A DNA stretch of 64,000 bases from the sequence record OQ174504.1; one strand, 5' to 3'. This document shows, in pieces, positions 4,082 through 19,695 of the stretch. Made by a program: the position numbers and the translations under genes. The stretch comes from Escherichia phage REP5. Under the pieces are notes generated by a model. The model searched no databases and was not told where the DNA came from. It saw only the letters and a program-made list of their open reading frames with translations. The stretch's first letter is position 1. Each line of letters begins with the position of its first letter.

Positions 4082-4453
4082 TTATTTTTTGAGAGTCGCT
4101 ACAGCAGAGAACGTTGGCTTGTTATCTGTCTGAGACTGACCACCATTATCAGGGGTCTTCTTAGTGTCTGCTGCAATCGCTTTCATCTCACCTGCTGAGT
4201 GAGTCATGATAGTTTTACCAGCCTCCATCATCGACTTCAGGTTTACATCGTCAGTCGTTAAACCGAACTCTGCAAGCTTATCAGCGTCCCTTGTAACAAT
4301 CGCCTCAAACAACTTTGCAGCAAACTCAGCAGAATTATCAATGGTCAGTTGAGCTTTTACGAGTGAGCTTTTGTTACGAGAGCCTTTTGGTCTTCCAGAT
4401 GGGTTTCCAGACTGGCCTTTTTTAAACTGGCCTTTGTTTGTTCTGTTTTTCAT
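4082..4453 (-). CDS. Hypothetical protein with GQSGNPSGRPKG N-terminal motif
   Basis: 123 aa ORF upstream of the vWA gene; basic N-terminus. Confidence 0.55.
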   Translation of the reverse strand: MKNRTNKGQFKKGQSGNPSGRPKGSRNKSSLVKAQLTIDNSAEFAAKLFEAIVTRDADKLAEFGLTTDDVNLKSMMEAGKTIMTHSAGEMKAIAADTKKTPDNGGQSQTDNKPTFSAVATLKK

Positions 4454-4845
4454 TGGTATGCCTCTTATAAGACCTCTTAAAAGGCTTTTAAGATAAAAGA
4501 TAGATATCCAGAAAGATATCTGTTTAAATAGCCTTTTTAGAGGAACCTTTTAAGTAATCTTCTAAGTATTTATAAGCCTACACCTTGTCAAGTACCTTGT
4601 CAACAACTTTTTTAACTTGCAATAGTTCTTGACTTGTTGTATGGATTACTGTACCATCTTACTTAAAGCTGTAGGTCTGCCTTGTTCTACAAAGGAGACT
4701 TAATGAGAAAATCAAATAAACCGAAGAAAGGTAAGAATACCAATCACTGTAAGGAATCAAAAAGGGTAGAATTAATCTACTATTCGTCCTCTGAAATTGG
4801 TCTGTACCTGTTCTTTCAAAATTACAGAAGACAAGAGGATTATCT

Positions 4846-5079
4846 ATGTGTAGTTCCCAATTAGAAATCGCAGATATTATAGATTTATATCAAACTGCAA
4901 AGAGTCATGGCTATATAACCTCAATTGGAAAGAATAGTCACTATGATGCTTTGACTGGAATGTATTTCAGGGCAATGGCTCAATCTAGTGAACAACACTT
5001 AATGGTTTCTTCCAGTGAGTTTACTTCGTTTCTCTATTGCAGCAAAATTATAAACCGCAGGAGAACTGAAAAATGTTAA
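4846..5079 (+). CDS. Hypothetical protein
   Basis: 77 aa ORF with AGAGGA Shine-Dalgarno upstream; first gene of plus-strand block. Confidence 0.4.
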   Translation: MCSSQLEIADIIDLYQTAKSHGYITSIGKNSHYDALTGMYFRAMAQSSEQHLMVSSSEFTSFLYCSKIINRRRTEKC

Positions 5080-5663
5080 CAGTAAGTTTTAATTACAATA
5101 GTGATGGCTCTGTATCAATTAATTCACCATATGCAAATGACCTACTTAAAGAGTTAGTAAACCAGTGTGAAAGAGGTCTTCACTATGTTCAAAATTCTTT
5201 TAAACAGAAAACTATTGCTAATAACTTGATGCGTGTAACAGTGACGACATCGAATCCAAATTATGATATTGATAGTGGAAGCCCTTACTCTTTAGTGGCT
5301 CTTGGAGAGCTAAATCAACTTAAACTTGTATGCCACGACTCAGAAACATTTCTTAAGGTATTTTCCAACCTTATCCATAATAATAAGTACAGCTACGTTG
5401 ATGGTAGTGTAAACTTCTATCCAGCAAACTATACATGCTTGTTGATTGATAATATGGGAAGTGGCAGGATTGAACCTACAGAAATTTCATTTGATGTGAA
5501 CTCTAGTCCAGATGCAGAAACAGGTAAGAACTTTGATATGAGTTACGCATTGTCACTCAGTAAGAAATCCGAGTTCATTGATTATGTCAATGGATTTGGT
5601 TTTAAGTTTGATGAGAGTATGAATCTTAAAAAACTTAAGAACCTACTTAAGACTAAAGCTTAA
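5073..5663 (+). CDS. Hypothetical protein
   Basis: 196 aa ORF, SD caggaga upstream. Confidence 0.6.
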   Translation: MLTVSFNYNSDGSVSINSPYANDLLKELVNQCERGLHYVQNSFKQKTIANNLMRVTVTTSNPNYDIDSGSPYSLVALGELNQLKLVCHDSETFLKVFSNLIHNNKYSYVDGSVNFYPANYTCLLIDNMGSGRIEPTEISFDVNSSPDAETGKNFDMSYALSLSKKSEFIDYVNGFGFKFDESMNLKKLKNLLKTKA

Positions 5664-5855: not shown

Positions 5856-6737
5856 ATGATTAAAGCAAAGACTTACCCAGACTTCAAAGAGTTTGTAAAA
5901 GGTTTTGTTGCAAATGTAAAGGCTGGTAAGAGATATGATTTTAGAACATATCAAGAGGCTATTTTACCGCTTACCTATAGCTCGTATTGGCCTGAAGCTG
6001 ATATTGCAGAAGTTAAGAAGTTTGACTATAAACCAGACTATAAAGTTCCATTTAGTGATGAGTTGCTTTACAGCATTGGTGCTCAAATGAGAACTTCTGA
6101 CTTCTTCATGGACTTACAATATGCAATTATCAATGGTAAAGACGTTGATACAGTTTATTGTGAATGGCTGGCAAGAGTTAAACCATTCTCAATGTTGAAT
6201 GCTAAGTTGAAGGATGCTGTCAAGACACCAGAAATCACTCAGCAACCAACCAATCAAACAGTAAATGAAGGTGGTACACTTACCCTAAGCATTATTGCAA
6301 CCAATGCAACTGGGTATCAATGGAAGAAAGATGGTTCTGACATTCCTTCGGCTACAGAAGCTACCTATAGCAAGTCTGGCGCACTGCCAGCAGATGCAGG
6401 TTCATACACTTGCGTTGTAACAGGTGCAGGTGGTTCTGTCACTTCCAACCCTGCAACAGTTACTGTGAACGCACTTCCAGTAATCACTCAACAGCCAACC
6501 AATCAAGAAATCAATGAAGGTGAGACCTTAACGCTGAATGTTGTGGCAACAGGTGCAACAGGTTACCAGTGGAAGAAAGGTGAGGAAGACATCCTCAATG
6601 CAACCTCTGCAACTTACACCAAAGAAGGTGCAACTGCTGCTGATTCAGGAAGCTACACCTGTGTAGTTACTGGTGCAGGTGGTTCTGTAACATCTAACGC
6701 AGCAACAGTTACAGTTAATCCAGTAGGAGGGGCATAA
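5856..6737 (+). CDS. Protein with two tandem Ig-like domains at C-terminus
   Basis: 293 aa; two near-identical ~80 aa repeats (ITQQPTNQ..GSYTCVVTGAGGSVTSN..TVTVN); stop overlaps lysozyme start (TAATG). Confidence 0.7.
   Translation: MIKAKTYPDFKEFVKGFVANVKAGKRYDFRTYQEAILPLTYSSYWPEADIAEVKKFDYKPDYKVPFSDELLYSIGAQMRTSDFFMDLQYAIINGKDVDTVYCEWLARVKPFSMLNAKLKDAVKTPEITQQPTNQTVNEGGTLTLSIIATNATGYQWKKDGSDIPSATEATYSKSGALPADAGSYTCVVTGAGGSVTSNPATVTVNALPVITQQPTNQEINEGETLTLNVVATGATGYQWKKGEEDILNATSATYTKEGATAADSGSYTCVVTGAGGSVTSNAATVTVNPVGGA
6237..6722 (+). repeat. Tandem 243-bp coding repeat (two Ig-like domain copies)
   Basis: Direct nucleotide and peptide repeat 6237-6479 / 6480-6722. Confidence 0.7.
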
Positions 6738-11459: not shown

Positions 11460-12640
11460 TGGGTCACCATCATATGTGAATAAAAATATCTATCCTTCTT
11501 AACAACCTTCTTAATCTTACTCTCTATATATAGTTATATAGTACTATATAGTATCTTAGTATCTATCTAGTGGTCTTAATAGCCCTCTGTATAAGCCTTC
11601 TAACAAGCCCTCTAACAATCCTTCTAAACACTCTTCTAACAAGCCTTCTTAACAACCTATACAATCACCTTAACCATCTCTCTATACCCTCTTAGAAGCT
11701 CCTATACACCTCTTAATCTCTAGGTTACCTGTGTTACTTAACAGTAACCCATTATGTCAGCTATGTTACCCTCTATAGGTGTTCACTAGGTATTACTAAG
11801 CCTCTATATAGACTGTTTTAACAAACTTAACAGGAATATCTTTACAGACCTTATCTCACAAGGTCTAACACGGTACTAACAAGGTATCTTATAAGCCTGT
11901 TTATGCCTGTATTTTTAAAAGACTGTCTAGGTAATTATTCAGAATTTTAAAATTTTTATAAAATAGGACTATCAAGTCATTTTTTAGGGTCTTTGAAGGA
12001 ACTCAAAAATATCTGTAGAAGATGTATATCTGCTTGGTAGCCCTTAACAGCTCCCTTACAAGTACTTTGCAAAATTTTAAAATATCCTTAACAATCTCTT
12101 AACAACTCTCTCAAGCTTTTAACATCTCTTTAGAGGTCTTAACAGATTCTTAACAGAACTAACAAGGCTGTAACAAGTTCTTAACAGTCAATACATGGTC
12201 TTTACAGAGTCTTAACAGATGACTAACAAGAGCTAACAAGTTAATTTTTAAGAGTTATTTTGTTAAGATAATTAACAAGTTCCTAACAAGTGTTTAATCT
12301 TTTTAACAAGCTATTAACATGGTCACTATCTCTGGTCTTATCGTTCCCTTTCTTTCTTAGTGATTCTCTAAACATACCTCTTAAAAGCCCTCTATAGCTC
12401 TTTGTAAGCTCTTTTAAGCCTCTTCCTAGTAATTACACCCCAACTATACAGACACCTATTTATAAGGCTTTACAGGAGCTTTAAAGGCTATGTCAAAGAC
12501 TCTTACAAGGCTTTTACATGATTTTAACAGAGATTTAACAAGGGGCTAACAAGTCTCTAACAAGTGCCTTAAAAGCATAACTATGTAGGGATTGTTAAGA
12601 AATTGTTAAGAAAATGTTAAGGGGGCTAGCATTTACGTAA
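11460..12640. repeat. Non-coding array of dispersed short repeats, consensus YTAACARG (more than 25 copies)
   Basis: No ORF of 60 aa or more; cttaacag / ctaacaag recurs every 10-40 bp on the plus strand; AT-rich. Confidence 0.7.
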
Positions 12641-13020
12641 CTTTTAAGCTACTTCAAAGTAACTTTATAGCCCCTATAACATACTTTTAAGACACTATCA
12701 AGCCCTTTTTAATAGTTCACAAGATAGCTAACGAGATGATAAAGCTTACACCCTTATAAGGTTCTTTTAAGGCTCTAGAAAGCTCTATAAAGGGCTTTTT
12801 AAAGGGAGTTAATGCAATCCCTTAAGTTGGGTTGATAAGGCTGTTATAGGGCTTTATAGAGCGTTTAAATGGTTGCCCTTCCCTTTCGGGTTATGGGCTT
12901 ATATTTAAGTTGATTTGATAAAAGGCTATAGGGTAGACTATAGAGTTATTGCTTTTTAAGGTCTGATAAGATTCTGGAAAGGAAAGGGAAAGGGTTGTAT
13001 AAGGGATTTGATAAGACGTA

Positions 13021-13045
13021 AAAAAGCCCCTATGAGGGGCTGTAT
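13021..13045 (-). terminator. Rho-independent terminator of minus-strand block
   Basis: Hairpin agcccctcataggggct followed by T-run on minus strand. Confidence 0.5.
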
Positions 13046-13059
13046 AAAGGTATCTGGGG

Positions 13060-13329
13060 CTATTTAGCCCCGTTGCGTCGATTAGTTAGTGCCTTCTTTG
13101 TCGTAGTACAGGGAGACAATTTTTCTCCCCAATAGTGATAAGTATAACCATCCTTGAGAACTTCTTGTTTTGTTTCCTCCCAGAACTTTTCTGAAGGATT
13201 ATAGCCTTTGATAGTCTGACTGATAAGACCTTTCACCATTTCAAAGGCGTTATCAGTTCCTACAATGTCAAATTTAACATCCAGAGAGGAAAAACCGAAC
13301 TCGTTAGCAGTAGCGCGGATAGTTGCCAT
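13060..13329 (-). CDS. Hypothetical protein
   Basis: 89 aa ORF preceded by conserved cassette and RBS TAGGAGA. Confidence 0.6.
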   Translation of the reverse strand: MATIRATANEFGFSSLDVKFDIVGTDNAFEMVKGLISQTIKGYNPSEKFWEETKQEVLKDGYTYHYWGEKLSPCTTTKKALTNRRNGAK

Positions 13330-13397
13330 TTTTGAATCTCCTAGTTTAAGGGTTTTACTTAGTGGGGAAGGTCATTCCCTCCCCGTTGATTGACAAT
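13330..13397 (-). promoter_or_regulatory. Type A regulatory cassette (stem-loop plus conserved RBS)
   Basis: ctcctagtttaagg..ggggaaggtcattccctcccc hairpin immediately 5' of the start codon. Confidence 0.5.
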
Positions 13398-13928
13398 TTA
13401 CAGATTTTTGATTGTCTCGTCAATATCTTTTTCAATATCTTTTAAAGTTTTTTCTAAGTTCTTGATATTGAAAGATAAGCCTTCTCCCAGTGTCTTAGAG
13501 TAACCACTAGGACGTGAGTTATATAATTCGATTTCTTCCACTTCGAAGAGACTAACCAACTCACCGCTTACACTGTAAGCCATAGAAACAGTATTTACAG
13601 GGGCTTTATAGAACTTGTTTAAGGTCTTGATAGAACGCTCATAAGCCATTTTATAACCATTTAAAAGGTTTTTAACATGATTACGAACGTTTTTACACTC
13701 ATCTAAGTAAAGCCCTAAAAACATCGGGAGAAGTTCCGCGACAGCTTGCATAAAGTGAGAGACTACAACAGTAGAAACATTACGACGATGAACGTAATAA
13801 GCCCCGTTTTCTGATTTGGTGATGGTTGCAAAGTGTACACCATTGCAGAGAAATTCGTATGTGTCTTTTACAGGTTTAGACATTACAGCATTTGAACGAA
13901 TGAAGTTGATAGCTTTGAACTTGTTCAT
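13398..13928 (-). CDS. Hypothetical protein
   Basis: 176 aa ORF. Confidence 0.6.
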   Translation of the reverse strand: MNKFKAINFIRSNAVMSKPVKDTYEFLCNGVHFATITKSENGAYYVHRRNVSTVVVSHFMQAVAELLPMFLGLYLDECKNVRNHVKNLLNGYKMAYERSIKTLNKFYKAPVNTVSMAYSVSGELVSLFEVEEIELYNSRPSGYSKTLGEGLSFNIKNLEKTLKDIEKDIDETIKNL

Positions 13929-14000
13929 TTTTGAATCTCCTAGTTTAAGGATTTTATTCAGTGGGGAAGGTCATTCCCTCCCCGTTGATTAGTAATTTAC
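13929..14000 (-). promoter_or_regulatory. Type A regulatory cassette
   Basis: Near-identical copy of the 13330 cassette. Confidence 0.5.
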
Positions 14001-14152
14001 TTGTTTTGATATCTGATTGCAAGCAATTTTTTAAGTTTATCTTTAAAGAAATCTTTTAAGTGAATCCCTTTAAGATAAACCCCCTCGAACAAAGTTACCA
14101 ATGTCAAGAGGGATTGTCAACACTTTTTTAGAAGTTTTTTGTAAGTTCTTGA

Positions 14153-14494
14153 TTAGCTTATAAATATTTTTTCAGGTTTTACGTAGCTGATACGTTGATT
14201 TTTTAGCAGGTCATCCCAGATTAGCGCGGCAATATGAGAATAGCCGGATTCACGTAGAAGCTTCATTGCTTTACATCTCGTTTCAAAGCGGGTTGCATAG
14301 TGCTCACTATTTAAAACCGTTTTAATCCCTTCGTTGTCTGTATGGATAATCTGCATCACTTGGAAGGGGCTTGCTTCCTCGCCTTTATTCCATTGCTCAA
14401 AGTATTTTAGGCACTGCATAGGTGTCATCTTGTCGCTTACTTGGGTTGACCAAGATGAATCCGGTTTATTGGTAATTACAGTTACGTGAGCCAT
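14153..14494 (-). CDS. Hypothetical protein
   Basis: ORF; start chosen at MAHVTV directly after the cassette RBS (longest ORF extends to 14539). Confidence 0.55.
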   Translation of the reverse strand: MAHVTVITNKPDSSWSTQVSDKMTPMQCLKYFEQWNKGEEASPFQVMQIIHTDNEGIKTVLNSEHYATRFETRCKAMKLLRESGYSHIAALIWDDLLKNQRISYVKPEKIFIS

Positions 14495-14575
14495 TTTAGA
14501 ATCTCCTAGTTTAAGGGTTTTATGTAGTGGGGGGGTCATTACCTCCAGTTGATTAGTAATTTACAGATTTTTATC
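14495..14575 (-). promoter_or_regulatory. Type A regulatory cassette (variant)
   Basis: Same cassette with altered stem. Confidence 0.45.
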
Positions 14576-14583
14576 CGGCTTGT

Positions 14584-14817
14584 CTAGTCTTTTTCTATGA
14601 TAATTTCATCTTGTCCGTCAACACTGTCAAAATAAACGCCGTCGCTGTCTTCTGTCTTAAAGTAACACTGAATGTCATCACTGGCGGGGTAGTCTTGTCT
14701 TGCTATCTGGCAAACCTGAATGGCATTTTCTTTACTCCCTGTAAACTCCCCAAGCTCTTCGAAATCACATGAATGGCCATTACAAATAGAAAGGATGAGG
14801 TAAACGGTTGTAAGCAT
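14584..14817 (-). CDS. Hypothetical protein, Cys-containing hydrophobic N-terminus
   Basis: 77 aa ORF. Confidence 0.5.
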   Translation of the reverse strand: MLTTVYLILSICNGHSCDFEELGEFTGSKENAIQVCQIARQDYPASDDIQCYFKTEDSDGVYFDSVDGQDEIIIEKD

Positions 14818-14883
14818 GATTAAAGCCCCCTAAAAGCCCCTACAAGGGGCTGAATAGTGTTTATAAGGTGATTGCATAGGTTT

Positions 14884-15426
14884 TTATAAAAAGCTCTTTA
14901 AATCCTCTTCTGCGATGTTTCCCGTTAGTGTGTCCATGATGTCACAAAAAACCTGAATGCTGTCCGACTGCTGAACACTTTTAGCAAGTAGTTCTAATGT
15001 CTCATCAAGATAATTCATATTTGGGTTATCCAATGAAGGGAGACAAAAAGGCGAAAACATCGCATTAAACTCAGTTACGTAAACCTTTTTAATCCAATTT
15101 AAATCGAAGTATTCCGTAAAACTTGCCACGTTCGCCATATTATCACAAGAATAATCATCATTTAACTCATCTTCTGGAATATCAAGTTCCAAGATAACAA
15201 TATTTTGGGTTTTCATCTGGAAAGCTGCGGTGATGGCGGCATTGCCCAGAGCTTGCTGGATACCTTCAGAGATTATCTCTTCCTCATCGTCGCCATAGAT
15301 TTTATTTTCTGGATAAACGTAAAAATTCCCATCCATATCCGAACAATTCCATGCACCTGATGGCTTATCACCGTTATTAATCAGGTTGCAGAAGTTTTCT
15401 TGAGTAGTACCGTGAAAGCATTTCAT
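14884..15426 (-). CDS. Hypothetical acidic protein
   Basis: 180 aa ORF rich in D/E. Confidence 0.6.
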   Translation of the reverse strand: MKCFHGTTQENFCNLINNGDKPSGAWNCSDMDGNFYVYPENKIYGDDEEEIISEGIQQALGNAAITAAFQMKTQNIVILELDIPEDELNDDYSCDNMANVASFTEYFDLNWIKKVYVTEFNAMFSPFCLPSLDNPNMNYLDETLELLAKSVQQSDSIQVFCDIMDTLTGNIAEEDLKSFL

Positions 15427-15513
15427 TTTTGAATCTCCTAGTTTAAGGATTTAGTGGTAAAGCTCTTTATCTGGGGTTTACTTTATCGAACTATAAACCC
15501 CTTGTAAAGTACT
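15427..15513 (-). promoter_or_regulatory. Type B regulatory cassette (promoter-like TTTACA/TAAAGT, AAAGTACTTT palindrome, stem-loop, RBS)
   Basis: Stem GGGGTTTA/TAAACCCC here versus GGGGCTTA/TAAGCCCC in other copies (compensatory change). Confidence 0.5.
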
Positions 15514-15717
15514 TTATTTGTTATTTTTGACAACTTTTAAAACTGCACGGTAACCTAAGCAATACGAATCACCGAAGAGAGACCGACCCATGAAGGAGTC
15601 CTCTGTAATATCTTTCGCCGTGACGGTTTTTTCTACGCCGTGAAAGAGAACTACATCACCAACTTTAATATCTTTGATGTGCGTTGTTTCAATGGTTAAA
15701 CCGTTAATAATAGCCAT
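15514..15717 (-). CDS. Hypothetical protein
   Basis: 67 aa ORF. Confidence 0.5.
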   Translation of the reverse strand: MAIINGLTIETTHIKDIKVGDVVLFHGVEKTVTAKDITEDSFMGRSLFGDSYCLGYRAVLKVVKNNK

Positions 15718-15790
15718 TTTTGAATCTCCTAGTTTAAGGGTTTTTATTTAGTGGGGAAGTCATTTCCTCCCCGTTGATGTGTAATTTAAT
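15718..15790 (-). promoter_or_regulatory. Type A regulatory cassette
   Basis: Hairpin ggggaagtcatttcctcccc plus conserved RBS. Confidence 0.5.
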
Positions 15791-15819
15791 CTATCTAAAA
15801 ACCAGTGTCAAGAAAATTT

Positions 15820-16224
15820 TTAAAGTTCTGCATAAATTGCATCGCAGATATTACGGAAATCGTGATTTGGCAAATTACGCTGCAACCAAGTGGCGAAAAA
15901 GTCAGCGATTGCATAATTAGCATCATACTCAACGGATAGCCATACTTTCACGGCGAATCTAAACATTTTTAAATCAAGCTCTTTATTCATTACCTTAGAT
16001 TTGCCCAACATGTCGGCCATTTCGTATTGTGCACCGTCTAGCGTGATACCTGCTGCAACGTCAGCCAGTGAGTTTTTTACGCTTTCAACGTCTAAGATAA
16101 CACTTTGAATCTTCCCAATAATGTTGTGCAATGTTTCATCTGGTGCTGATGACGTAATAACATTAATCCGGTTAACGGTCAAACGTGCTTTTAAGATTGA
16201 TAATTCACGGTTATTAATAGCCAT
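15820..16224 (-). CDS. Hypothetical protein
   Basis: 134 aa ORF. Confidence 0.6.
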   Translation of the reverse strand: MAINNRELSILKARLTVNRINVITSSAPDETLHNIIGKIQSVILDVESVKNSLADVAAGITLDGAQYEMADMLGKSKVMNKELDLKMFRFAVKVWLSVEYDANYAIADFFATWLQRNLPNHDFRNICDAIYAEL

Positions 16225-16309
16225 TTTTGAATCTCCAATTTAGGATTTAGTGGTAAAGCTCTTTATCTGTGGATTAAGGTAACAACTTTTAAACCCCTTG
16301 TAAAGTACT
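16225..16309 (-). promoter_or_regulatory. Type B regulatory cassette
   Basis: Copy of type B unit. Confidence 0.45.
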
Positions 16310-16582
16310 TTACACTAAATGCAGCTTTTTACCTTTTACCATGATGTAACTTGATGCGCTATTGCTGTAAACATCCTGATAAATTCTGCGCAAACGTCCT
16401 TCGTAGTATACTTTCCAACTAGTTGGAATCTTTTTACCGTATCCGGTAGCAGTTTTTTGGAATCCTGCAAGTTGCCAATCCAAAATATGCTGTTCAGCTT
16501 GTAAATCCTCGAAGTGCATTACACCGTTCACGTAGTGGCGTAGGGTTACGTTTAAGGTGCGACCGTTGTTAGTAGTATGCAT
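16310..16582 (-). CDS. Hypothetical protein
   Basis: 90 aa ORF. Confidence 0.55.
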   Translation of the reverse strand: MHTTNNGRTLNVTLRHYVNGVMHFEDLQAEQHILDWQLAGFQKTATGYGKKIPTSWKVYYEGRLRRIYQDVYSNSASSYIMVKGKKLHLV

Positions 16583-16660
16583 TTTGAATCTCCTAGTTTA
16601 AGAGCTTTATGTAGTGGGAGGTGATGACCTCCCGTTGATTAGTAATTTACTTGTTTTTAA
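16583..16660 (-). promoter_or_regulatory. Type A regulatory cassette (compensatory stem variant)
   Basis: Hairpin gggaggtgatgacctccc replaces ggggaagg..ccctcccc, preserving pairing. Confidence 0.5.
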
Positions 16661-16668
16661 AATCAAAA

Positions 16669-17001
16669 TCAAGAAAAATTTTTTCGTTTGTTCAGTTCTT
16701 GAACAATTACAGCGTAGTAGTCTTTTAAGTCACTGATATTTAAAGCATTTATCAGGGAATTATAATCATCGACTAACTGAAAATCCTCTTTGAAGATGTC
16801 ACTAATCTGGTAGGTTTTCGCTTTAAATCTGAAGCTCATTTCTAGCCGCTTTATTTGCTCATCACTGAGGCGCCCTAGAAAGCTTTCTACAAGGTTATTG
16901 CTAACCTGCTGTGTGATTGCCTTACTTGCCAGATTATAGGCTTTATATGCCTTATATAGTGCCAGAATGGCTATGATTGCGGTGATGCCAGTCATTAGCA
17001 T
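16669..17001 (-). CDS. Hypothetical membrane-anchored protein
   Basis: 110 aa ORF with N-terminal hydrophobic helix. Confidence 0.55.
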   Translation of the reverse strand: MLMTGITAIIAILALYKAYKAYNLASKAITQQVSNNLVESFLGRLSDEQIKRLEMSFRFKAKTYQISDIFKEDFQLVDDYNSLINALNISDLKDYYAVIVQELNKRKNFS

Positions 17002-17291
17002 GGTGTTACCTCTTTTTGTGAGATTTTGCCATTTACAGTTATCTCATAGGATTCTAATAAGTCACTTTTAGACTTTACTGGACTTTTAAAAGTATTATCG
17101 TAAATATTGACTTGCAATACAGGTTTTTTATACTCCCTGCAACTATTCCATAAACAAATCACTACACGACGGCCTTTTATTTTGCCGTGTAACCATTCCA
17201 TAACATCATGATTATTTCTTGATGTTTCAATGAAATCAATTTTGTTGAGTAACTTGCTTAGATTTTCACGGACTTTATTTGATAATTTCAT
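16995..17291 (-). CDS. Hypothetical protein
   Basis: 98 aa ORF. Confidence 0.55.
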   Translation of the reverse strand: MKLSNKVRENLSKLLNKIDFIETSRNNHDVMEWLHGKIKGRRVVICLWNSCREYKKPVLQVNIYDNTFKSPVKSKSDLLESYEITVNGKISQKEVTPC

Positions 17292-17379
17292 TTTAGAATC
17301 TCCAGTTTAGGATTTAGTGGTAAAGCTCTTTATCTGGGGCTTAAGATATCAGCTTTTAAGCCCCCTGTAAAGTACTTTA
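17292..17379 (-). promoter_or_regulatory. Type B regulatory cassette
   Basis: Stem GGGGCTTAA/TTAAGCCCC. Confidence 0.5.
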
Positions 17380-17637
17380 TCAGATTAAATTGCCAGTTAA
17401 TGATAAGTGCATTTTATAGCCTTGCTTAGTGAATACGTTCACTTTACCGAGTGTTTCCACACCTTTAAAAAGGTTGTTTGAACTATGTTTTAAGATTAAA
17501 CGTTTATCAACCTTTACGCCCCATCTTACAGCAGATTTTTTCCCGTTGTCAATCACTTTCCCGCATAACTTTTTAGCCATAACGCGAGCGTCATCACGAG
17601 TTTTTGCAGAAATTACAACGTTTTTGATAATAGCCAT
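17380..17637 (-). CDS. Hypothetical protein
   Basis: 85 aa ORF. Confidence 0.55.
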   Translation of the reverse strand: MAIIKNVVISAKTRDDARVMAKKLCGKVIDNGKKSAVRWGVKVDKRLILKHSSNNLFKGVETLGKVNVFTKQGYKMHLSLTGNLI

Positions 17638-17725
17638 TTTTGAATCTCCAATTTAGGATTTAGTGGTAAAGCTCTTTATCTGGGGCTTACTTTATCGAAC
17701 TATAAGCCCCTTGTAAAGTACTTTA
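17638..17725 (-). promoter_or_regulatory. Type B regulatory cassette
   Basis: Copy of type B unit. Confidence 0.5.
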
Positions 17726-18106
17726 TTAGTTAATTTTGAAAATTGTCACATAACCATCACTGCCGATTATTTGAGACACTCCAGCTTTTTCCACTTGATA
17801 GCCCATATTTTCAAGATGATAAACAGCATCATCGTAACCATATGCGCCGCCCTGATAACGTCTCTTATTGCATTTTATCAGGTTTTTACCACGTCCAGCA
17901 AGCGCATTCAGTACGGCTTTTTCACTTGAAAGAGTACCGTCTAACATGGTTGCCGTGTAATGGTTAATCCTGTTACCATTTACGTCATATTTAAAATTGA
18001 ATGCGTGAACAACAATCAATTTGCCGTTAAATTTTTCATCAAGTGACTTCTCCAGTGCGTTGCGGAAGTTGTCTTTGTTGATGAATTTCGGTGCACGATA
18101 AGCCAT
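17726..18106 (-). CDS. Hypothetical protein
   Basis: 126 aa ORF. Confidence 0.6.
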   Translation of the reverse strand: MAYRAPKFINKDNFRNALEKSLDEKFNGKLIVVHAFNFKYDVNGNRINHYTATMLDGTLSSEKAVLNALAGRGKNLIKCNKRRYQGGAYGYDDAVYHLENMGYQVEKAGVSQIIGSDGYVTIFKIN

Positions 18107-18195
18107 TTTTGAATCTCCTAGTTTAAGGTTAGTTAATAAAGCTCTTTATCTGGGGCTTAAGATACCAACTTTTAAGCCCCCTGTAAAGTACTTTA
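18107..18195 (-). promoter_or_regulatory. Type B regulatory cassette
   Basis: Copy of type B unit. Confidence 0.5.
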
Positions 18196-18402
18196 TTAGA
18201 TTTCGTAGTAGTAAACTGCTGTCTGTCTTATGTGCTTTCTTGTGATTCTCGTAAGGTAGCAATTAGAATTTATAGCCGTTTCTACATGGTTGCAATAGTC
18301 AGTTTCTGATATCCTAGTCCATACGTCACAAATTTTCATGTAGAAACGTTTTACATCTGTATCAACGTTGGTTGTAACCATCAATTCACGGCAGTAAGTC
18401 AT
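18196..18402 (-). CDS. Hypothetical protein
   Basis: 68 aa ORF, first gene after promoter at 18453-18481. Confidence 0.5.
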   Translation of the reverse strand: MTYCRELMVTTNVDTDVKRFYMKICDVWTRISETDYCNHVETAINSNCYLTRITRKHIRQTAVYYYEI

Positions 18403-18452
18403 TTTTCAGTTCTCCAGTTTAGGAAGTGGGCTTGTCGCCCCGTCTGATGCAG

Positions 18453-18481
18453 ATACTATAAAAACCCGTTCAAGGAGTCAA
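18453..18481 (-). promoter_or_regulatory. Sigma70-like promoter (-35 TTGACT, 17 bp spacer, -10 TAGTAT)
   Basis: Read on minus strand: TTGACTccttgaacgggtttttaTAGTAT, AT-rich upstream. Confidence 0.5.
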
Positions 18482-18653
18482 TAAAAATTTTAAAAATATT
18501 TTTGGCAAAAATGTAATGAAACGGGCGCACGCGACTACCACAAAACAGAACTACAATCAAGAATTATTTTTCAATCCGCTACAAATTTTTATGTTGACTT
18601 TTCTTTTCAGATGTGGTAGCCTCGTGAGAAATGGCGACATCCCCACCTACACC

Positions 18654-18841
18654 CACCTACCTGCACAATTCTAAAATGATTTTTCTTGCCCGACCTGATT
18701 TTTATCTGCACGTTTTGAAAATGAAAAAGCTCTTTGGAGATTACCTGCACAGTTTGAAAATGAATTTTCTCTTTGGAGTTCAAAATTCTCTCTACAGATT
18801 TCTCTATAGAAATCTACCTGCACAATCCTGAAATGAAAAAG
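18654..18841. repeat. Four direct repeats of about 22 bp (consensus TACCTGCACARTTYTRAAAATGA), iteron-like
   Basis: Copies at about 18654, 18704, 18745 and 18815 in a non-coding interval upstream of the promoter. Confidence 0.6.
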
Positions 18842-18909
18842 CCCTCCTTACCTGAAAAATTTACCAGATAAGAAAGGCTTAACCTATTGTGAATATCCTA
18901 CAGAGTTTC

Positions 18910-19695
18910 TTAGTTATTTGCGTCTAAGAAGGTAACTTCTGGTGAAGAGAAGATTGCCCCAATATCCTCATCAGTTCTTGCATAGATGTAGGCATCTGCA
19001 TCACTGCCAAATGTTACTGCAATCCTGTGATTGCTCTTCGACAGGTGGGTAACTAGAGCGTTACTTAGAGACATCTTTTCAACCGGAGGGTTACTTTGAT
19101 GTACCTTACCTTTTCTTCGTCTGAAGAGGGTAACTGCATTATCTGAGAACACTGCTACGCCTGCAAAGTATTCTGGTTCACAGTAGTTCTTCCAACCTGA
19201 GTGTAACTCATTATACATTTTTGCTTCATAGACATACAGATAAACATCTACACTCTTCATTGCCTGATTAATGATAACTGTGACAGCTTGAGGGTCAAGT
19301 CCACCGATACCTGCGCCAATCATAGGTAACCCAACTTTCTTCAACTGATTAACTTCACAGTATCTGTTAAGTTGCTTCAAAGATGACTCTAAAGCACTGT
19401 AACGGGCATCTTTACCAGTCTTAAGCTGAGTGTAAAGATTAGCTATACGACCTTGTTTTAAACGCGCTACAGAGAAATTACCTAGTAAATTTTCACAGGG
19501 TTTGTGGCCTATACCACCTGCATACAGATAAACTTCTGTATCGGTCTCATATGCTTTTGGGTAAAGTTTAGAAATCTTAGCAGCGATACCTGCACCCATT
19601 AAGTTCATACAGTTGCAACCGTGACCAATGATATCAAACTTACCCTTATCAAATGCGGAGAAGATATCCCCATTGATGATTTTTACAATACCCAT
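18910..19695 (-). CDS. Macro-domain protein (ADP-ribose binding/processing) with C-terminal extension
   Basis: 261 aa; INGDIF..DIIGHGCNCMNLMGAGIA and GLPMIGAGIGGLDP resemble macro-domain glycine-rich motifs. Confidence 0.6.
   Translation of the reverse strand: MGIVKIINGDIFSAFDKGKFDIIGHGCNCMNLMGAGIAAKISKLYPKAYETDTEVYLYAGGIGHKPCENLLGNFSVARLKQGRIANLYTQLKTGKDARYSALESSLKQLNRYCEVNQLKKVGLPMIGAGIGGLDPQAVTVIINQAMKSVDVYLYVYEAKMYNELHSGWKNYCEPEYFAGVAVFSDNAVTLFRRRKGKVHQSNPPVEKMSLSNALVTHLSKSNHRIAVTFGSDADAYIYARTDEDIGAIFSSPEVTFLDANN

What the first reader, a model, noticed from the sequence alone, without database searches (positions are those of the whole stretch)
13330..18200. Ten repeated promoter/stem-loop/RBS cassettes with compensatory stem changes separate a block of small genes
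Two cassette families alternate between about 12 small ORFs. Each ends in the same translation initiation region (TAAACTAGGAGATTCAAAAATGGC). Family B contains TTTACA, 17 bp, TAAAGT and the palindrome AAAGTACTTT; both families contain G-rich stems that covary (GGGGCTTA/TAAGCCCC versus GGGGTTTA/TAAACCCC; GGGGAAGG/CCCTCCCC versus GGGAGGT/ACCTCCC). This matches the mobile regulatory cassette (PeSL) concept from T4-type phages. The small genes are candidate host-takeover or anti-defence cargo.
Basis: partly seen in the sequence, partly recalled or inferred. Interest (0 to 1): 0.7.

Follow-up and report, generated by a model that had tools for sequence, protein, structure and literature searches.

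The report
Repeated promoter-hairpin-RBS cassettes, Felix O1-like phage
A 5-kb block next to the terminal repeat of a Felix O1-like coliphage holds 13 small genes of unknown function. Nearly every one has its own copy of one of two standard "promoter + RNA hairpin + ribosome-binding site" cassettes. Related phages differ by whole cassette-plus-gene units, as described for the PeSL cassettes of T4-type phages.

Summary
The window is Escherichia phage REP6/REP7, a Felixounavirus. They drive 13 small ORFs and occur nowhere else in the ~89-kb genome.

Family B is TTTACA-17 bp-TAnnnT embedded in a two-tier hairpin of about 20 bp. Both end in one standard translation start region.

In 69 distinct B copies from three genera of the subfamily Ounavirinae, 99% of stem positions pair and 6 pairs show compensatory changes. 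Thirteen different -10 hexamers all keep TAnnnT.

Eleven related genomes differ by whole cassette+gene units, and the junction cassettes are chimeras. The same gene sits behind different cassette variants, or even the other family, in different phages.

This matches the PeSL concept well, in a phage lineage where it had not been described. Earlier papers listed pieces of it as plain repeats. Promoter activity, hairpin function and cargo function remain untested. The hairpins lack U-tracts, so a terminator role is doubtful. It is a new member of a known kind, of moderate interest.

The parts
18400..18481 (-). Head cassette P0 (A-like). TTGACT (18476-18481), 17 bp, TAGTAT (18453-18458), CTGCATCAGAC, hairpin GGGGCGACAAGCCC (18428-18441), TAAACTGGAGAACTGAAAAATG.
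   Evidence: In VpaE1 the same head cassette is fused directly to the 126-aa gene.
18104..18194 (-). B cassette 1. -35 TTTACA 18182-18187; -10 TATCTT 18159-18164 (TG-extended). Lower stem 18184-18194 with 18138-18148; upper stem 18172-18180 with 18152-18160. SD to ATG 18104-18118.
   Evidence: (-25.6 kcal/mol, z -4.0).
17635..17724 (-). B cassette 2. -35 17712-17717; -10 TAAAGT 17689-17694. Lower stem 17714-17724 with 17668-17678; upper stem 17702-17710 with 17682-17690.
   Evidence: -21.6 kcal/mol, z -4.75; 117.8 bits.
17289..17378 (-). B cassette 3. -35 17366-17371; -10 TATCTT 17343-17348. Lower stem 17368-17378 with 17322-17332; upper stem 17356-17364 with 17336-17344. It drives the translationally coupled gene pair g4-g5.
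   Evidence: (-22.9 kcal/mol, z -3.6).
16580..16672 (-). A cassette 1. -35 TTGATT 16667-16672; -10 TAAATT 16644-16649; hairpin GGGAGGTCATCACCTCCC 16616-16633; SD to ATG 16580-16593.
16222..16311 (-). B cassette 4. -35 16299-16304; -10 TACCTT 16276-16281. The upper stem is degraded (GGGGTTTAA with TTAATCCAC, 2 mismatches).
   Evidence: (-15.9 kcal/mol, z -1.8).
15715..15811 (-). A cassette 2. -35 TTGACA 15806-15811; -10 TAAATT 15783-15788; hairpin 15753-15772; SD to ATG 15715-15729.
   Evidence: It contains the 39-bp repeat listed for Felix O1.
15424..15515 (-). B cassette 5. -35 15503-15508; -10 TAAAGT 15480-15485. The upper stem carries the compensatory C-G to U-A change (GGGGTTTA with TAAACCCC).
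   Evidence: (-19.2 kcal/mol, z -4.5).
14818..14883 (-). Intergenic region without an A or B cassette. Terminator-like hairpin AGCCCCTTGTAGGGGCT (14835-14851) followed by TTTTAG, then the weak start region of g10.
   Evidence: The equivalent hairpin in Mordin has no U-tract, so a terminator role is uncertain.
14492..14586 (-). A cassette 3. -35 TAGACA 14581-14586; -10 TAAATT 14558-14563. The hairpin at 14529-14547 is weak in this copy.
   Evidence: (-4.2 kcal/mol).
13926..14022 (-). A cassette 4. -35 TTGCAA 14017-14022; -10 TAAATT 13994-13999; hairpin GGGGAGGGAATGACCTTCCCC 13963-13983.
13327..13423 (-). A cassette 5. -35 TTGACG 13418-13423, inside the 3' end of g12; -10 TAAATT 13395-13400; hairpin 13364-13384.
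13025..13041 (-). Canonical intrinsic terminator (AGCCCCTCATAGGGGCT followed by TTTTTT) closing the block. A second hairpin, GGGGCTAAATAGCCCC, lies just upstream.
   Evidence: It corresponds in position to Felix O1 terminator t23.
18839..18880 (-). Intrinsic terminator after the phosphatase gene. It marks the upstream limit of the block.
   Evidence: It corresponds to Felix O1 terminator t13.
18196..18402 (-). g1, 68 aa, phrog_5293 (unknown function). Present or absent among relatives.
17726..18106 (-). g2, 126 aa, phrog_4495 (unknown function). Present or absent among relatives; led by B in 18 cassette-led copies across the surveyed genomes and contigs, and by P0 in 18.
17380..17637 (-). g3, 85 aa, phrog_5089 (unknown function). 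Present or absent among relatives.
16995..17291 (-). g4, 98 aa, phrog_4401 (unknown function).
16669..17001 (-). g5, 110 aa, phrog_4375 (unknown function). Its start overlaps the end of g4 by 7 nt. It is the only gene with no upstream hairpin or cassette.
16310..16582 (-). g6, 90 aa, phrog_3436 (unknown function). Homologues occur in Erwinia, Cronobacter and T7-like Pseudomonas phages.
15820..16224 (-). g7, 134 aa, phrog_4327 (unknown function).
15514..15717 (-). g8, 67 aa, phrog_3623 (unknown function). Absent from Felix O1.
14884..15426 (-). g9, 180 aa, phrog_3303 (unknown function). Weak ADP-ribosyltransferase/Tpt1-like fold signal. Absent from Felix O1.
14584..14817 (-). g10, 77 aa, phrog_4640 (unknown function). 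No A or B cassette. Absent from Felix O1.
14153..14494 (-). g11, 113 aa, phrog_4318 (unknown function).
13398..13928 (-). g12, 176 aa, phrog_4725 (unknown function).
13060..13329 (-). g13, 89 aa, phrog_4559 (unknown function). Its C-terminus differs from the 82-aa form in relatives.

Best explanation
The block is an array of self-contained early-expression cassettes of the PeSL type. Each cassette supplies one small gene (once a coupled pair) with three things: a host sigma-70 promoter, a conserved G/C-rich RNA hairpin, and a standardised AU-rich leader with a strong Shine-Dalgarno sequence (TAAACTAGGAGATTCAAAAATG).

In family A and the head cassette the promoter lies upstream. The hairpin then sits 2-4 nt from the predicted 5' end of the transcript, where it most likely stabilises or insulates the mRNA.

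In family B the -35 and -10 elements are embedded in a two-tier hairpin of about 20 bp. The lower stem is AAAGUACUUUA paired with UAAAGAGCUUU, then a 3x3 internal loop, then the upper stem GGGGCUUAA paired with UUAAGCCCC. The predicted transcript start falls just 3' of the upper stem. The full hairpin can therefore form only in RNA that reads through from upstream, where it would insulate, attenuate or process that RNA.

Because 60-100 bp of near-identical sequence recurs every 300-600 bp, the cassettes also act as joints for homologous recombination. This deletes, inserts and swaps whole cassette+gene units and makes the cassettes themselves mosaic.

Shown here: the anatomy, the conservation, the covariation, and the cassette-bounded insertions and deletions.
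Inferred: promoter activity, transcript start positions, hairpin function and early timing. The timing has partial support from published RT-PCR on Felix O1 homologues.
For: Anatomy and non-chance occurrence.

Promoters:
- The consensus scan finds TTTACA-17-TAnnnT at 4 B copies, TTGnnn-17-TAAATT at 3 A copies, and TTGACT-17-TAGTAT at the head cassette.
- Among 69 distinct B copies, 68 keep TTTACA and 66 keep a 17-bp spacer. Thirteen different -10 hexamers all keep TAnnnT, although they lie in an otherwise variable loop.
- Among 53 distinct A copies there are five different -35/spacer versions. All keep T(T/A)G, and 52 keep 17-bp spacing.

Hairpins:
- B folds at -19 to -26 kcal/mol with z-scores of -3.6 to -6.3.
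- 97-99% of stem positions are paired, against 92-95% in shuffles (0 of 500 shuffles reach the observed value) and 32-60% in slid controls.
- Six pairs show changes on both sides.
- In B variant 4 the two AAAG...CTTT elements lose their own palindromy but stay complementary to each other.
- The 26 catalogued A hairpin variants all keep a 6-8 bp stem of -9 to -16 kcal/mol.

Modularity:
- In 11 genomes all gene-content differences in the block are cassette+gene units.
- The junction cassettes are chimeras of the two flanking cassettes.
- Loop class and leader variant assort freely.
- Among 423 cassette-led ORFs there are 22 cargo families. The same family is led by B or A, or by B or P0, in different genomes.
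- The nearest relative of each REP6 gene changes from gene to gene.

Distribution:
- The cassettes occur only in this block of the genome.
- They occur in 288 Felix O1-like phage records at about 5 places each, and in none of 5,426 complete E. coli genomes.
- They occur in the genera Felixounavirus, Mooglevirus and Kolesnikvirus.

Timing: Felix O1 ORFs 16, 20, 21 and 22, which are homologues in this block, are maximally expressed 5 min after infection.

The PeSL architecture and its experimental basis are described.
Against: - There are no transcript-end data for any Felix O1-like phage in the searched literature. Promoters and transcript starts are therefore predictions. The overall count of promoter-like sites in the region is only modestly above shuffles (28 against 18 +/- 4).
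- Felix O1 ORFs 17, 19 and 23, which also sit behind cassettes, peaked at 25 min rather than 5 min.
- Most lower-stem pairs never vary. They overlap the -35 and the leader, which could be conserved for other reasons. Only 1 of the 10 lower-stem pairs shows a double change.
- Alignment A3 was fitted to the structure, which biases the pair counts towards it.
- A-family stems are purine runs paired with pyrimidine runs, so pairing is easy to keep by chance.
- Sense and antisense strands fold about equally well, so the strand of action is not proven.
- The cargo repertoire is small (22 families) and gene order is conserved. 'Mobile' here means presence/absence and swapping among relatives, not free movement.
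Confidence: 0.75

Rival explanations
1. Strict PeSL reading. The hairpins are transcription terminators or attenuators, so each gene is an isolated unit transcribed only from its own promoter.
For: In RB49/phi1 a PeSL stem-loop reduced lacZ expression as much as rrnB T1. The commonest PeSL stem-loop position, between -35 and -10, is the position in family B. Every intergenic region in the block carries a G/C-rich hairpin.
Against: No cassette hairpin is followed by a U-tract. The B upper stem is followed by AGAUAAAGAG and the A stem by ACUAAAUAAAA. The terminator scan flags only 13025-13041 and 18839-18880 among minus-strand intergenic sites. Those two sites show that the phage uses canonical terminators where it needs them. 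The family A hairpin lies downstream of its own promoter and would terminate its own transcript.
Confidence: 0.2
2. The B hairpin is an RNase III-type processing signal like those between the early genes of T7. Read-through RNA would be cut in the 3x3 internal loop. That would leave the upstream mRNA with a protective 3' hairpin and give the downstream mRNA almost the same 5' end as a transcript initiated at the embedded promoter.
For: The B element has two stems totalling 19-20 bp separated by an internal loop, with strong folding energy and covariation. That size and form resemble known E. coli RNase III substrates (established knowledge of T7 R1.1-type sites). The predicted transcript start coincides with the 3' strand of the internal loop.
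Against: There is no cleavage evidence. Rfam has no matching family. The lower stem consists of AU pairs with a bulge. Family A hairpins (6-8 bp) are too short for RNase III, so the idea covers only half of the cassettes.
Confidence: 0.2
3. The AAAGTACTTT and AAAGAGCTTT palindromes are DNA operators for a phage or host repressor that shuts off family B promoters after the early phase. On this view the RNA pairing is incidental.
For: TAAAGTACTTTA is a perfect palindrome overlapping the -35. A near-copy lies just downstream of the predicted transcript start in all 5 copies. Several block genes peak at 5 min.
Against: In B variant 4 (upstream of the 98-aa gene in UAB_69, Felix O1, garuso and FGS030) neither element is a palindrome any longer. 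The two remain complementary over 11 pairs through a G-C to U-A double change and G.U pairs. That fits a hairpin, not two independent dimer sites. The two elements are 47 bp apart, which places them on opposite faces of the helix.
Confidence: 0.1
4. The repeats are only a by-product of past tandem duplication of one regulatory region. They are conserved for expression alone and play no part in gene-content change.
For: Gene order is conserved and only 22 cargo families are seen. Strong promoters and start regions would be conserved anyway.
Against: All gene-content differences in the block are cassette-bounded and have chimeric junctions. Loop and leader variants assort freely. The same gene sits behind A or B in different genomes. 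Mordin carries a tandem of 1.5 B cassettes with no gene between them.
Confidence: 0.1

Closest known systems
PeSL (promoter-early stem-loop) cassettes of T4-type phages (Arbiol et al. 2010, PMC2839356; Comeau et al. 2014, PMC4122927)
   Same: - Repeated intergenic modules in a plastic region of small genes of unknown function.
- The upstream gene's stop codon lies in an AT-rich stretch.
- A sigma-70-like -35, 17 bp, -10 promoter (the PST/T4 consensus is TTTACW-17-TAYWAT, like family B).
- G-run/C-run stem-loops, most often between -35 and -10 or overlapping -10.
- A Shine-Dalgarno sequence and ATG at the 3' end.
- Insertions, deletions and replacements between close relatives are bounded by the cassettes.
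   Different: - The host lineage is the Ounavirinae (Felix O1-like), not T4-like.
- The cassettes are longer (85-100 bp) and far more uniform: two discrete sequence families with a near-identical 45-nt leader.
- The family B hairpin has a second, lower stem that pairs the -35 region with the start of the leader.
- The family A hairpin lies after the predicted transcript start, which is not one of the five PeSL subclasses.
- There is no U-tract and no test of termination, promoter strength or mini-circles here.
Start-associated sequences (SAS) and extended SAS of cluster K mycobacteriophages, the comparison made for Citrobacter phage Mordin (PMC4611695)
   Same: A conserved motif that includes the ribosome-binding site lies immediately upstream of the start codons of a subset of genes. 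The extended form adds an inverted repeat just upstream (my recollection of Pope et al. 2011). The 26-bp Mordin repeat CCAACAATCCTAAACTGGAGAATCTA is the 3' end of the cassettes described here.
   Different: The sequences and hosts are unrelated. SAS are not described as containing sigma-70 promoters or as boundaries of insertions and deletions. The Mordin note covered only the 26-bp start region, not the promoter or hairpin.
RNase III processing hairpins between the early genes of phage T7
   Same: Structured elements of about 60 nt lie between small early genes. They have an upper and a lower stem separated by an internal loop, as family B does.
   Different: T7 sites contain no promoter, and T7 early genes are transcribed from a promoter cluster at one end. 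Cleavage is proven for T7 and untested here.
Host-takeover module of Bacillus phage SPO1
   Same: A cluster of small early genes lies at or next to the terminal repeat, served by many strong host-type promoters and strong ribosome-binding sites (established knowledge). The block here ends about 400 bp from the homologue of a terminal repeat.
   Different: The SPO1 module is not built from two repeated cassette families with conserved hairpins. The cargo here has no shown host-takeover function.
Direct repeats listed in the Felix O1 genome paper (Whichard et al. 2010, PMC3185647)
   Same: The 57-bp repeat (CTTTACATGGGGCTTAAAAGTCTGTAAAGTAAGCCCCAGATAAAGAGCTTTACCACT) is the core of family B. The 39-bp repeat (TTGACACTGGTTTTTAGATAGATTAAATTACACATCAAC) is the promoter of one family A variant.
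   Different: The paper reported them only as repeats, in two copies each. It gave no promoter, hairpin, cassette or recombination reading, and stated that secondary promoters were unknown.

Membership tests
PeSL cassette | Repeated intergenic motif concentrated in a plastic region of small genes of unknown function | tested here: met
   All 11 copies lie in 13327-18481 and none elsewhere in the ~89-kb genome. The cargo has no Pfam hit and only PHROG families of unknown function.
PeSL cassette | Sigma-70-like early promoter (-35, about 17 bp, -10) | tested here: met
   Tested at sequence level only. TTTACA-17-TAnnnT is kept in 66-68 of 69 distinct B copies. T(T/A)Gnnn-17-TAAATT is kept in 52 of 53 distinct A copies. 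Promoter activity was not testable.
PeSL cassette | AT-rich stretch with the upstream gene's stop codon just before the -35 | tested here: met
   B: TAA/TGA followed by TAAAGTAC immediately before TTTACA. A: AAAAATTTTC and similar stretches.
PeSL cassette | Stable stem-loop with G and C tracts, placed in or next to the promoter (five described subclasses) | tested here: met
   The B stem-loop spans the spacer and the -10, the commonest PeSL class. The A stem-loop starts about 10 nt after the -10, i.e. after the predicted transcript start, so A fits only loosely.
PeSL cassette | Shine-Dalgarno sequence and start codon at the 3' end | tested here: met
   GGAG(A) lies 7-9 nt before the ATG in all copies.
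PeSL cassette | The stem-loop terminates or attenuates upstream transcription | not testable with these tools
   No U-tract follows any cassette hairpin, and none is flagged by the terminator scan.
PeSL cassette | Gene insertions, deletions and replacements between close relatives have endpoints in the cassettes | tested here: met
   Eleven genomes were compared, with a wider set. Examples are chimeric junction cassettes in Alf5, REP9, Felix O1, VpaE1 and HK3.
PeSL cassette | Excised mini-circles formed by recombination between neighbouring cassettes | not testable with these tools
   This needs inverse PCR on infected cells or virion DNA.
PeSL cassette | Occurs in T4-like phages (the described distribution) | tested here: not met
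   The window is a Felixounavirus of the subfamily Ounavirinae. This is a limit of the description, not of the mechanism.
Intrinsic (rho-independent) terminator | G/C-rich stem directly followed by a U-tract | tested here: not met
   Not met for any cassette hairpin. Met only by 13025-13041 and 18839-18880, and loosely by 14835-14851.
RNase III processing site (T7 early type) | Interrupted duplex of about 20 bp or more with an internal loop | tested here: met
   Family B has 10-11 plus 9 bp around a 3x3 loop. Family A hairpins of 6-8 bp do not qualify.
RNase III processing site (T7 early type) | Cleavage by RNase III in vivo or in vitro | not testable with these tools
   No transcript-end data were found.
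Any curated RNA family (Rfam 15) | Match to a covariance model | tested here: not met
   In 12000-19500 the only match is a sub-threshold CRISPR-repeat model outside the block.
SAS-like start-associated repeat | Conserved motif including the ribosome-binding site directly upstream of many start codons | tested here: met
   The equivalent 26-bp repeat was reported for Mordin. Relatedness to the mycobacteriophage SAS was not tested.

The most novel reading that the evidence does not exclude
Family B is a dual-use element. As DNA it is a promoter. As RNA, in transcripts arriving from upstream, the same bases fold into a 20-bp two-tier hairpin. That hairpin would be cut (RNase III-type) or otherwise resolved at the internal loop, so that initiated and processed mRNAs share one 5' end and one leader. 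Each cargo gene would then be expressed in the same way whatever lies upstream. This would be a natural 'insulated expression part' that allows genes to be shuffled freely. Similar promoter-embedded hairpins in T4-like and Pakpunavirus early regions would make this a convergent design rule for the accessory-gene arrays of virulent phages.
Probability: 0.2. Interest if true: 0.65.

Novelty: new member of a known kind. Interest (0 to 1): 0.4.

Why it matters
It extends the PeSL idea beyond T4-like phages to the Felix O1 group (subfamily Ounavirinae), which is widely used for Salmonella typing, biocontrol and therapy. In that idea, regulatory cassettes also serve as recombination joints for accessory genes.

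It gives a concrete answer to a question left open in the Felix O1 genome paper, namely where the secondary promoters are. It unifies three scattered observations: the 57-bp and 39-bp repeats of Felix O1 and the 26-bp 'SAS-like' repeat of Mordin.

Practically, the cassettes mark a dispensable, naturally modular slot array. It has ready-made promoters and ribosome-binding sites, which is useful for inserting payload genes into these phages. It also marks where to look for host-takeover or anti-defence genes.

The well-supported two-tier hairpin overlapping a promoter is a clean system for asking what such embedded hairpins do.

Tried and rejected
- Rfam scan of 12000-19500: no relevant family.
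- Pfam on 10 of the 13 cargo proteins: nothing. PHROGs on all 13: only families of unknown function.
- Sense versus antisense folding, to decide which strand the hairpins act on: the energies are similar, so this gives no argument.
- A lower stem for family A (UUACU with AGUAA): not conserved among the copies, so dropped (inspection).
- Literature search for transcript-start or RNA-seq data on Felix O1-like phages, and for any PeSL description outside T4-like phages: none found.
- The PhageMaP preprint on Bas63 gave only a remark on g107.
- An integron attC-like reading (structured repeats between small promoterless genes) was considered and rejected. These cassettes carry promoters and ribosome-binding sites, are conserved in sequence, and Felix O1-like phages are virulent phages not known to encode an integrase. 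I did not scan the genome for one.
- A two-operator reading of the palindromes is disfavoured by B variant 4.
- A search for the B cassette outside the lineage found nothing: none in 5,426 complete E. coli genomes, and only 53-94 kb Felix O1-like contigs in IMG/VR.

Full report
**Identity and setting**

The queried stretch, window 13000-18500, is 100% identical to Escherichia phages REP6 and REP7 (genus Felixounavirus, subfamily Ounavirinae). It is 88-91% identical to many other Felix O1-like phages. All genes in 13060-18402 are on the minus strand and are annotated 'hypothetical protein'.

The block is bounded by canonical intrinsic terminators: 18839-18880 upstream, after a phosphatase gene, and 13025-13041 downstream. 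It ends about 400 bp from the homologue (12034-12628) of the direct terminal repeat annotated in phage UAB_69.

**Checking the observation**

Read on the minus strand, the intergenic regions fall into two families.

Family B has five copies, at 18104-18194, 17635-17724, 17289-17378, 16222-16311 and 15424-15515. Its consensus is:

stop codon - AAAGTACTTTACA - GGGGCTTAA - 11 nt - TTAAGCCCC - AGATAAAGAGCTTTACCACTAAATCC - TAAAyTrGGAGATTCAAAAATG.

Family A has five copies, at 16580-16672, 15715-15811, 14492-14586, 13926-14022 and 13327-13423. Its consensus is:

TTGnnn - 17 bp - TAAATT - ACTAATCAAC - GGGGAGGG..CCTTCCCC - ACTAnATAAAAnCC - TTAAACTAGGAGATTCAAAAATG.

The motifs are far above chance. The 22-mer start region gives 7 matches against 0.01 expected. 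AGATAAAGAGCTTTA gives 7 against 0.33. AAAGTACTTTACA is exact in all five B copies.

The motifs occur nowhere else in the 64-kb window, nor in the remaining 25 kb of the REP7 genome.

- TAAAGT is the -10 of only two B copies.
- Family A has its own upstream promoter.
- The first gene has an eleventh, A-like cassette (18400-18481: TTGACT-17-TAGTAT, hairpin, TAAACTGGAGAACTGAAAAATG).
- The two families alternate only in the middle of the block.

**Promoters**

A consensus scan independently calls TTTACA-17-TATCTT or TAAAGT at four B copies. It also calls TTGACA, TAGACA or TTGACG-17-TAAATT at three A copies, and TTGACT-17-TAGTAT at the head cassette.

The stronger argument is comparative. Among 69 distinct B cassettes from 15 genomes, 68 keep TTTACA and 66 keep a 17-bp spacer. 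Thirteen different -10 hexamers all keep T-A-n-n-n-T. These are the only invariant positions in an otherwise variable loop.

Among 53 distinct A cassettes there are five unrelated -35/spacer versions. All keep T(T/A)G, and 52 keep the 17-bp spacing to TAAATT.

The Felix O1 paper reported RT-PCR maxima at 5 min for ORFs 16, 20, 21 and 22, and at 25 min for ORFs 17, 19 and 23. All seven are homologues of genes in this block.

No transcript-start data were found for any Felix O1-like phage.

**Hairpins**

It also found an outer stem in which AAAGUACUUUA, which overlaps the -35, pairs with UAAAGAGCUUU, which lies just after the predicted transcript start.

Single sequences fold into this two-tier hairpin: a lower stem of 10-14 bp, a 3x3 internal loop, an upper stem of 9 bp and an 11-nt loop. 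The energies are -19 to -26 kcal/mol with z-scores of -3.6 to -6.3. The copy at 16222-16311 is degraded.

On the MAFFT alignment, 98.4% of stem positions are paired. Shuffles give 95.3% (0 of 500 reach the observed value) and slid controls give 30-60%.

A covariance model recovered 72 B cassettes in Felixounavirus, Mooglevirus (Citrobacter phage Mordin) and Kolesnikvirus (an Erwinia phage). It found none in a Pakpunavirus control or in the rest of the genome. On that alignment, which is fitted to the model, 99.0% of positions pair against 93.5% in shuffles. Six pairs have changes on both sides, five of them among the nine upper-stem pairs. The covariation score is 0.164 against 0.064.

B variant 4, found upstream of the 98-aa gene in four genomes, is informative. 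Its two AAAG..CTTT elements are no longer palindromes. They still pair with each other over 11 positions, through a G-C to U-A double change and G.U pairs. This favours a hairpin over two separate operator sites.

For family A, 26 distinct hairpin variants were catalogued (four other sequences were missed by the extraction pattern). All 26 keep a 6-8 bp stem of -9 to -16 kcal/mol. Purine-run/pyrimidine-run arms make this easy to maintain by chance.

The geometry differs between the families. In A and the head cassette the hairpin starts 10-11 nt after the -10, which is 2-4 nt from the predicted 5' end of the RNA. In B the predicted start lies just 3' of the upper stem, so the full hairpin exists only in read-through RNA.

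None of the cassette hairpins is followed by a U-tract. Sense and antisense strands fold about equally well.

**Modularity**

I compared 11 genomes (loci L002-L011 plus the window). The backbone order is conserved, and every difference in gene content is a whole cassette+gene unit.
- Any subset of the 68-, 126-, 85- and 170-aa genes can precede the 98-aa gene.
- Felix O1 lacks the 67-, 180- and 77-aa genes, which lie between two A cassettes.
- HK3 and fjerdesal have an extra A cassette with an 87-aa gene.

In each case the single cassette in the shorter genome is a chimera. Its 5' part matches the left cassette of the longer genome and its 3' part matches the right cassette.

Loop class and leader variant assort freely, and the same gene has different loop classes in different phages.

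In a wider set, about 40 genomes and IMG/VR contigs, 423 cassette-led ORFs fall into only 22 cargo families. The same family can be led by either cassette type:
- the 180-aa family by B (31 times) or A (3 times);
- the 113-aa family by A (24) or B (5);
- the 126-aa family by B (18) or P0 (18).

The closest relative of each REP6 gene changes from gene to gene. Mordin carries a tandem of 1.5 B cassettes with no gene between them.

The B cassette occurs in 288 phage records at about five places each, all Felix O1-like. It occurs in none of 5,426 complete E. coli genomes. An IMG/VR pattern scan hit only contigs of 53-94 kb with this kind of genome.

**Comparison with known systems**

The PeSL papers define an AT-rich stretch containing the upstream stop codon, a sigma-70-like promoter, a stem-loop rich in G and C tracts, and then a Shine-Dalgarno sequence and ATG. 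The stem-loop is most often between -35 and -10 or overlapping -10. These elements are concentrated in hyperplastic regions and sit at the endpoints of insertions and deletions. Promoter, terminator and mini-circle activity were demonstrated experimentally.

Family B fits this description point by point at the sequence level, and family A fits loosely.

The differences are as follows.
- The lineage is Ounavirinae.
- The cassettes are much more uniform and longer, and form two discrete families.
- Family B has an extra lower stem.
- There is no U-tract.

Pieces of these cassettes were already in print without interpretation. The Felix O1 paper listed 57-bp and 39-bp direct repeats. The Mordin announcement reported a 26-bp 'SAS-like' repeat upstream of eight start codons. 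No paper in the searched library applies the PeSL idea to Felix O1-like phages.

**Cargo**

There are no Pfam hits for the 10 proteins scanned, and all 13 genes fall in PHROG families of unknown function. Some have homologues in Erwinia, Cronobacter, Vibrio and Pseudomonas phages.

**Verdict**

The finding is a real, lineage-wide array of PeSL-type promoter-hairpin-RBS cassettes, and these also serve as recombination joints. The anatomy, the covariation and the cassette-bounded gene turnover are shown here. Promoter activity, transcript ends, the role of the hairpins (stabiliser or insulator, attenuator, or RNase III-type processing) and the cargo functions are inferred or open.

It is a new member of a known kind and of moderate interest.

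Noticed in passing
window 18640-18850 (minus strand): The 507-nt intergenic region ahead of the block holds four spaced copies of a motif of about 22 nt, TCATTTT(C)A-n3-5-TGTGCAGGTA (repeat finder families D9 and D10). They lie between the upstream terminator and the head promoter. Their function is unknown. They could be binding sites for a regulator or iterons.
   Followed up: partly
window 14023-14152 (minus strand): The long (224-nt) intergenic region before the 176-aa gene has an extra TTGACA-17-TAACTT promoter-like site. An AATCCCTC...GAGGGGGTT inverted repeat spans it. There is also a 36-aa TTG-start ORF (13997-14107). Some relatives annotate a small gene here (Mordin_111; a 126-nt CDS in FGS030). 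It may be a decayed or unrecognised cassette slot.
   Followed up: partly
window 12034-12628 and 12380-13020: 12034-12628 is 90% identical to the 618-bp direct terminal repeat annotated in phage UAB_69, so the cassette block abuts a probable physical genome end. The non-coding stretch between them is full of short G/C-cored motifs (GGGCTTTATAG, CTTATAAGG). It also holds a degenerate B-like remnant at 12639-12668.
   Followed up: partly
[not shown]
   Followed up: partly
L015 (Pseudomonas phage SPA05, Pakpunavirus), upstream of the genes at 6361, 6952 and 7548: An unrelated phage group also has early-region promoters with an embedded hairpin. Examples are TTGACAGCTTGGGCCATTCCTGTAGAATGGCCC (a 9-bp stem covering the spacer and the -10) and TTGACGGGGCCCGAAAAGGGCCCCATAAT. 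PeSL-like architecture may be widespread in virulent myoviruses.
   Followed up: no
L012 (Citrobacter phage Mordin) 1051-1193: A 143-nt intergenic region contains about one and a half B cassettes in tandem with no gene between them. This looks like the scar of a cassette-to-cassette deletion or an unequal crossover.
   Followed up: no
L013 (Erwinia phage vEam_W_25) 4408-4503: A B-type cassette (67 bits) lies inside the annotated 5' end of gp111 (CDS 4417-5088). The homologue of the 180-aa protein aligns from 4501, so the annotated start is probably about 28 codons too early.
   Followed up: no
hit H16 (GU169904, 'Staphylococcus phage SA1', 147 kb): A record labelled as a Staphylococcus phage contains this Felix O1-like block at 90% identity. 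One 'Campylobacter' record also matches. These are most likely chimeric or mislabelled database entries.
   Followed up: no
window 14584-14883 (minus strand): The 77-aa gene is the only uncoupled gene without an A or B cassette. It is preceded by a terminator-like hairpin (14835-14851, followed by UUUUAG) and a poor ribosome-binding site. In Mordin the equivalent hairpin has no U-tract and a better Shine-Dalgarno sequence. This suggests a third, simpler hairpin+RBS element rather than a true terminator.
   Followed up: partly
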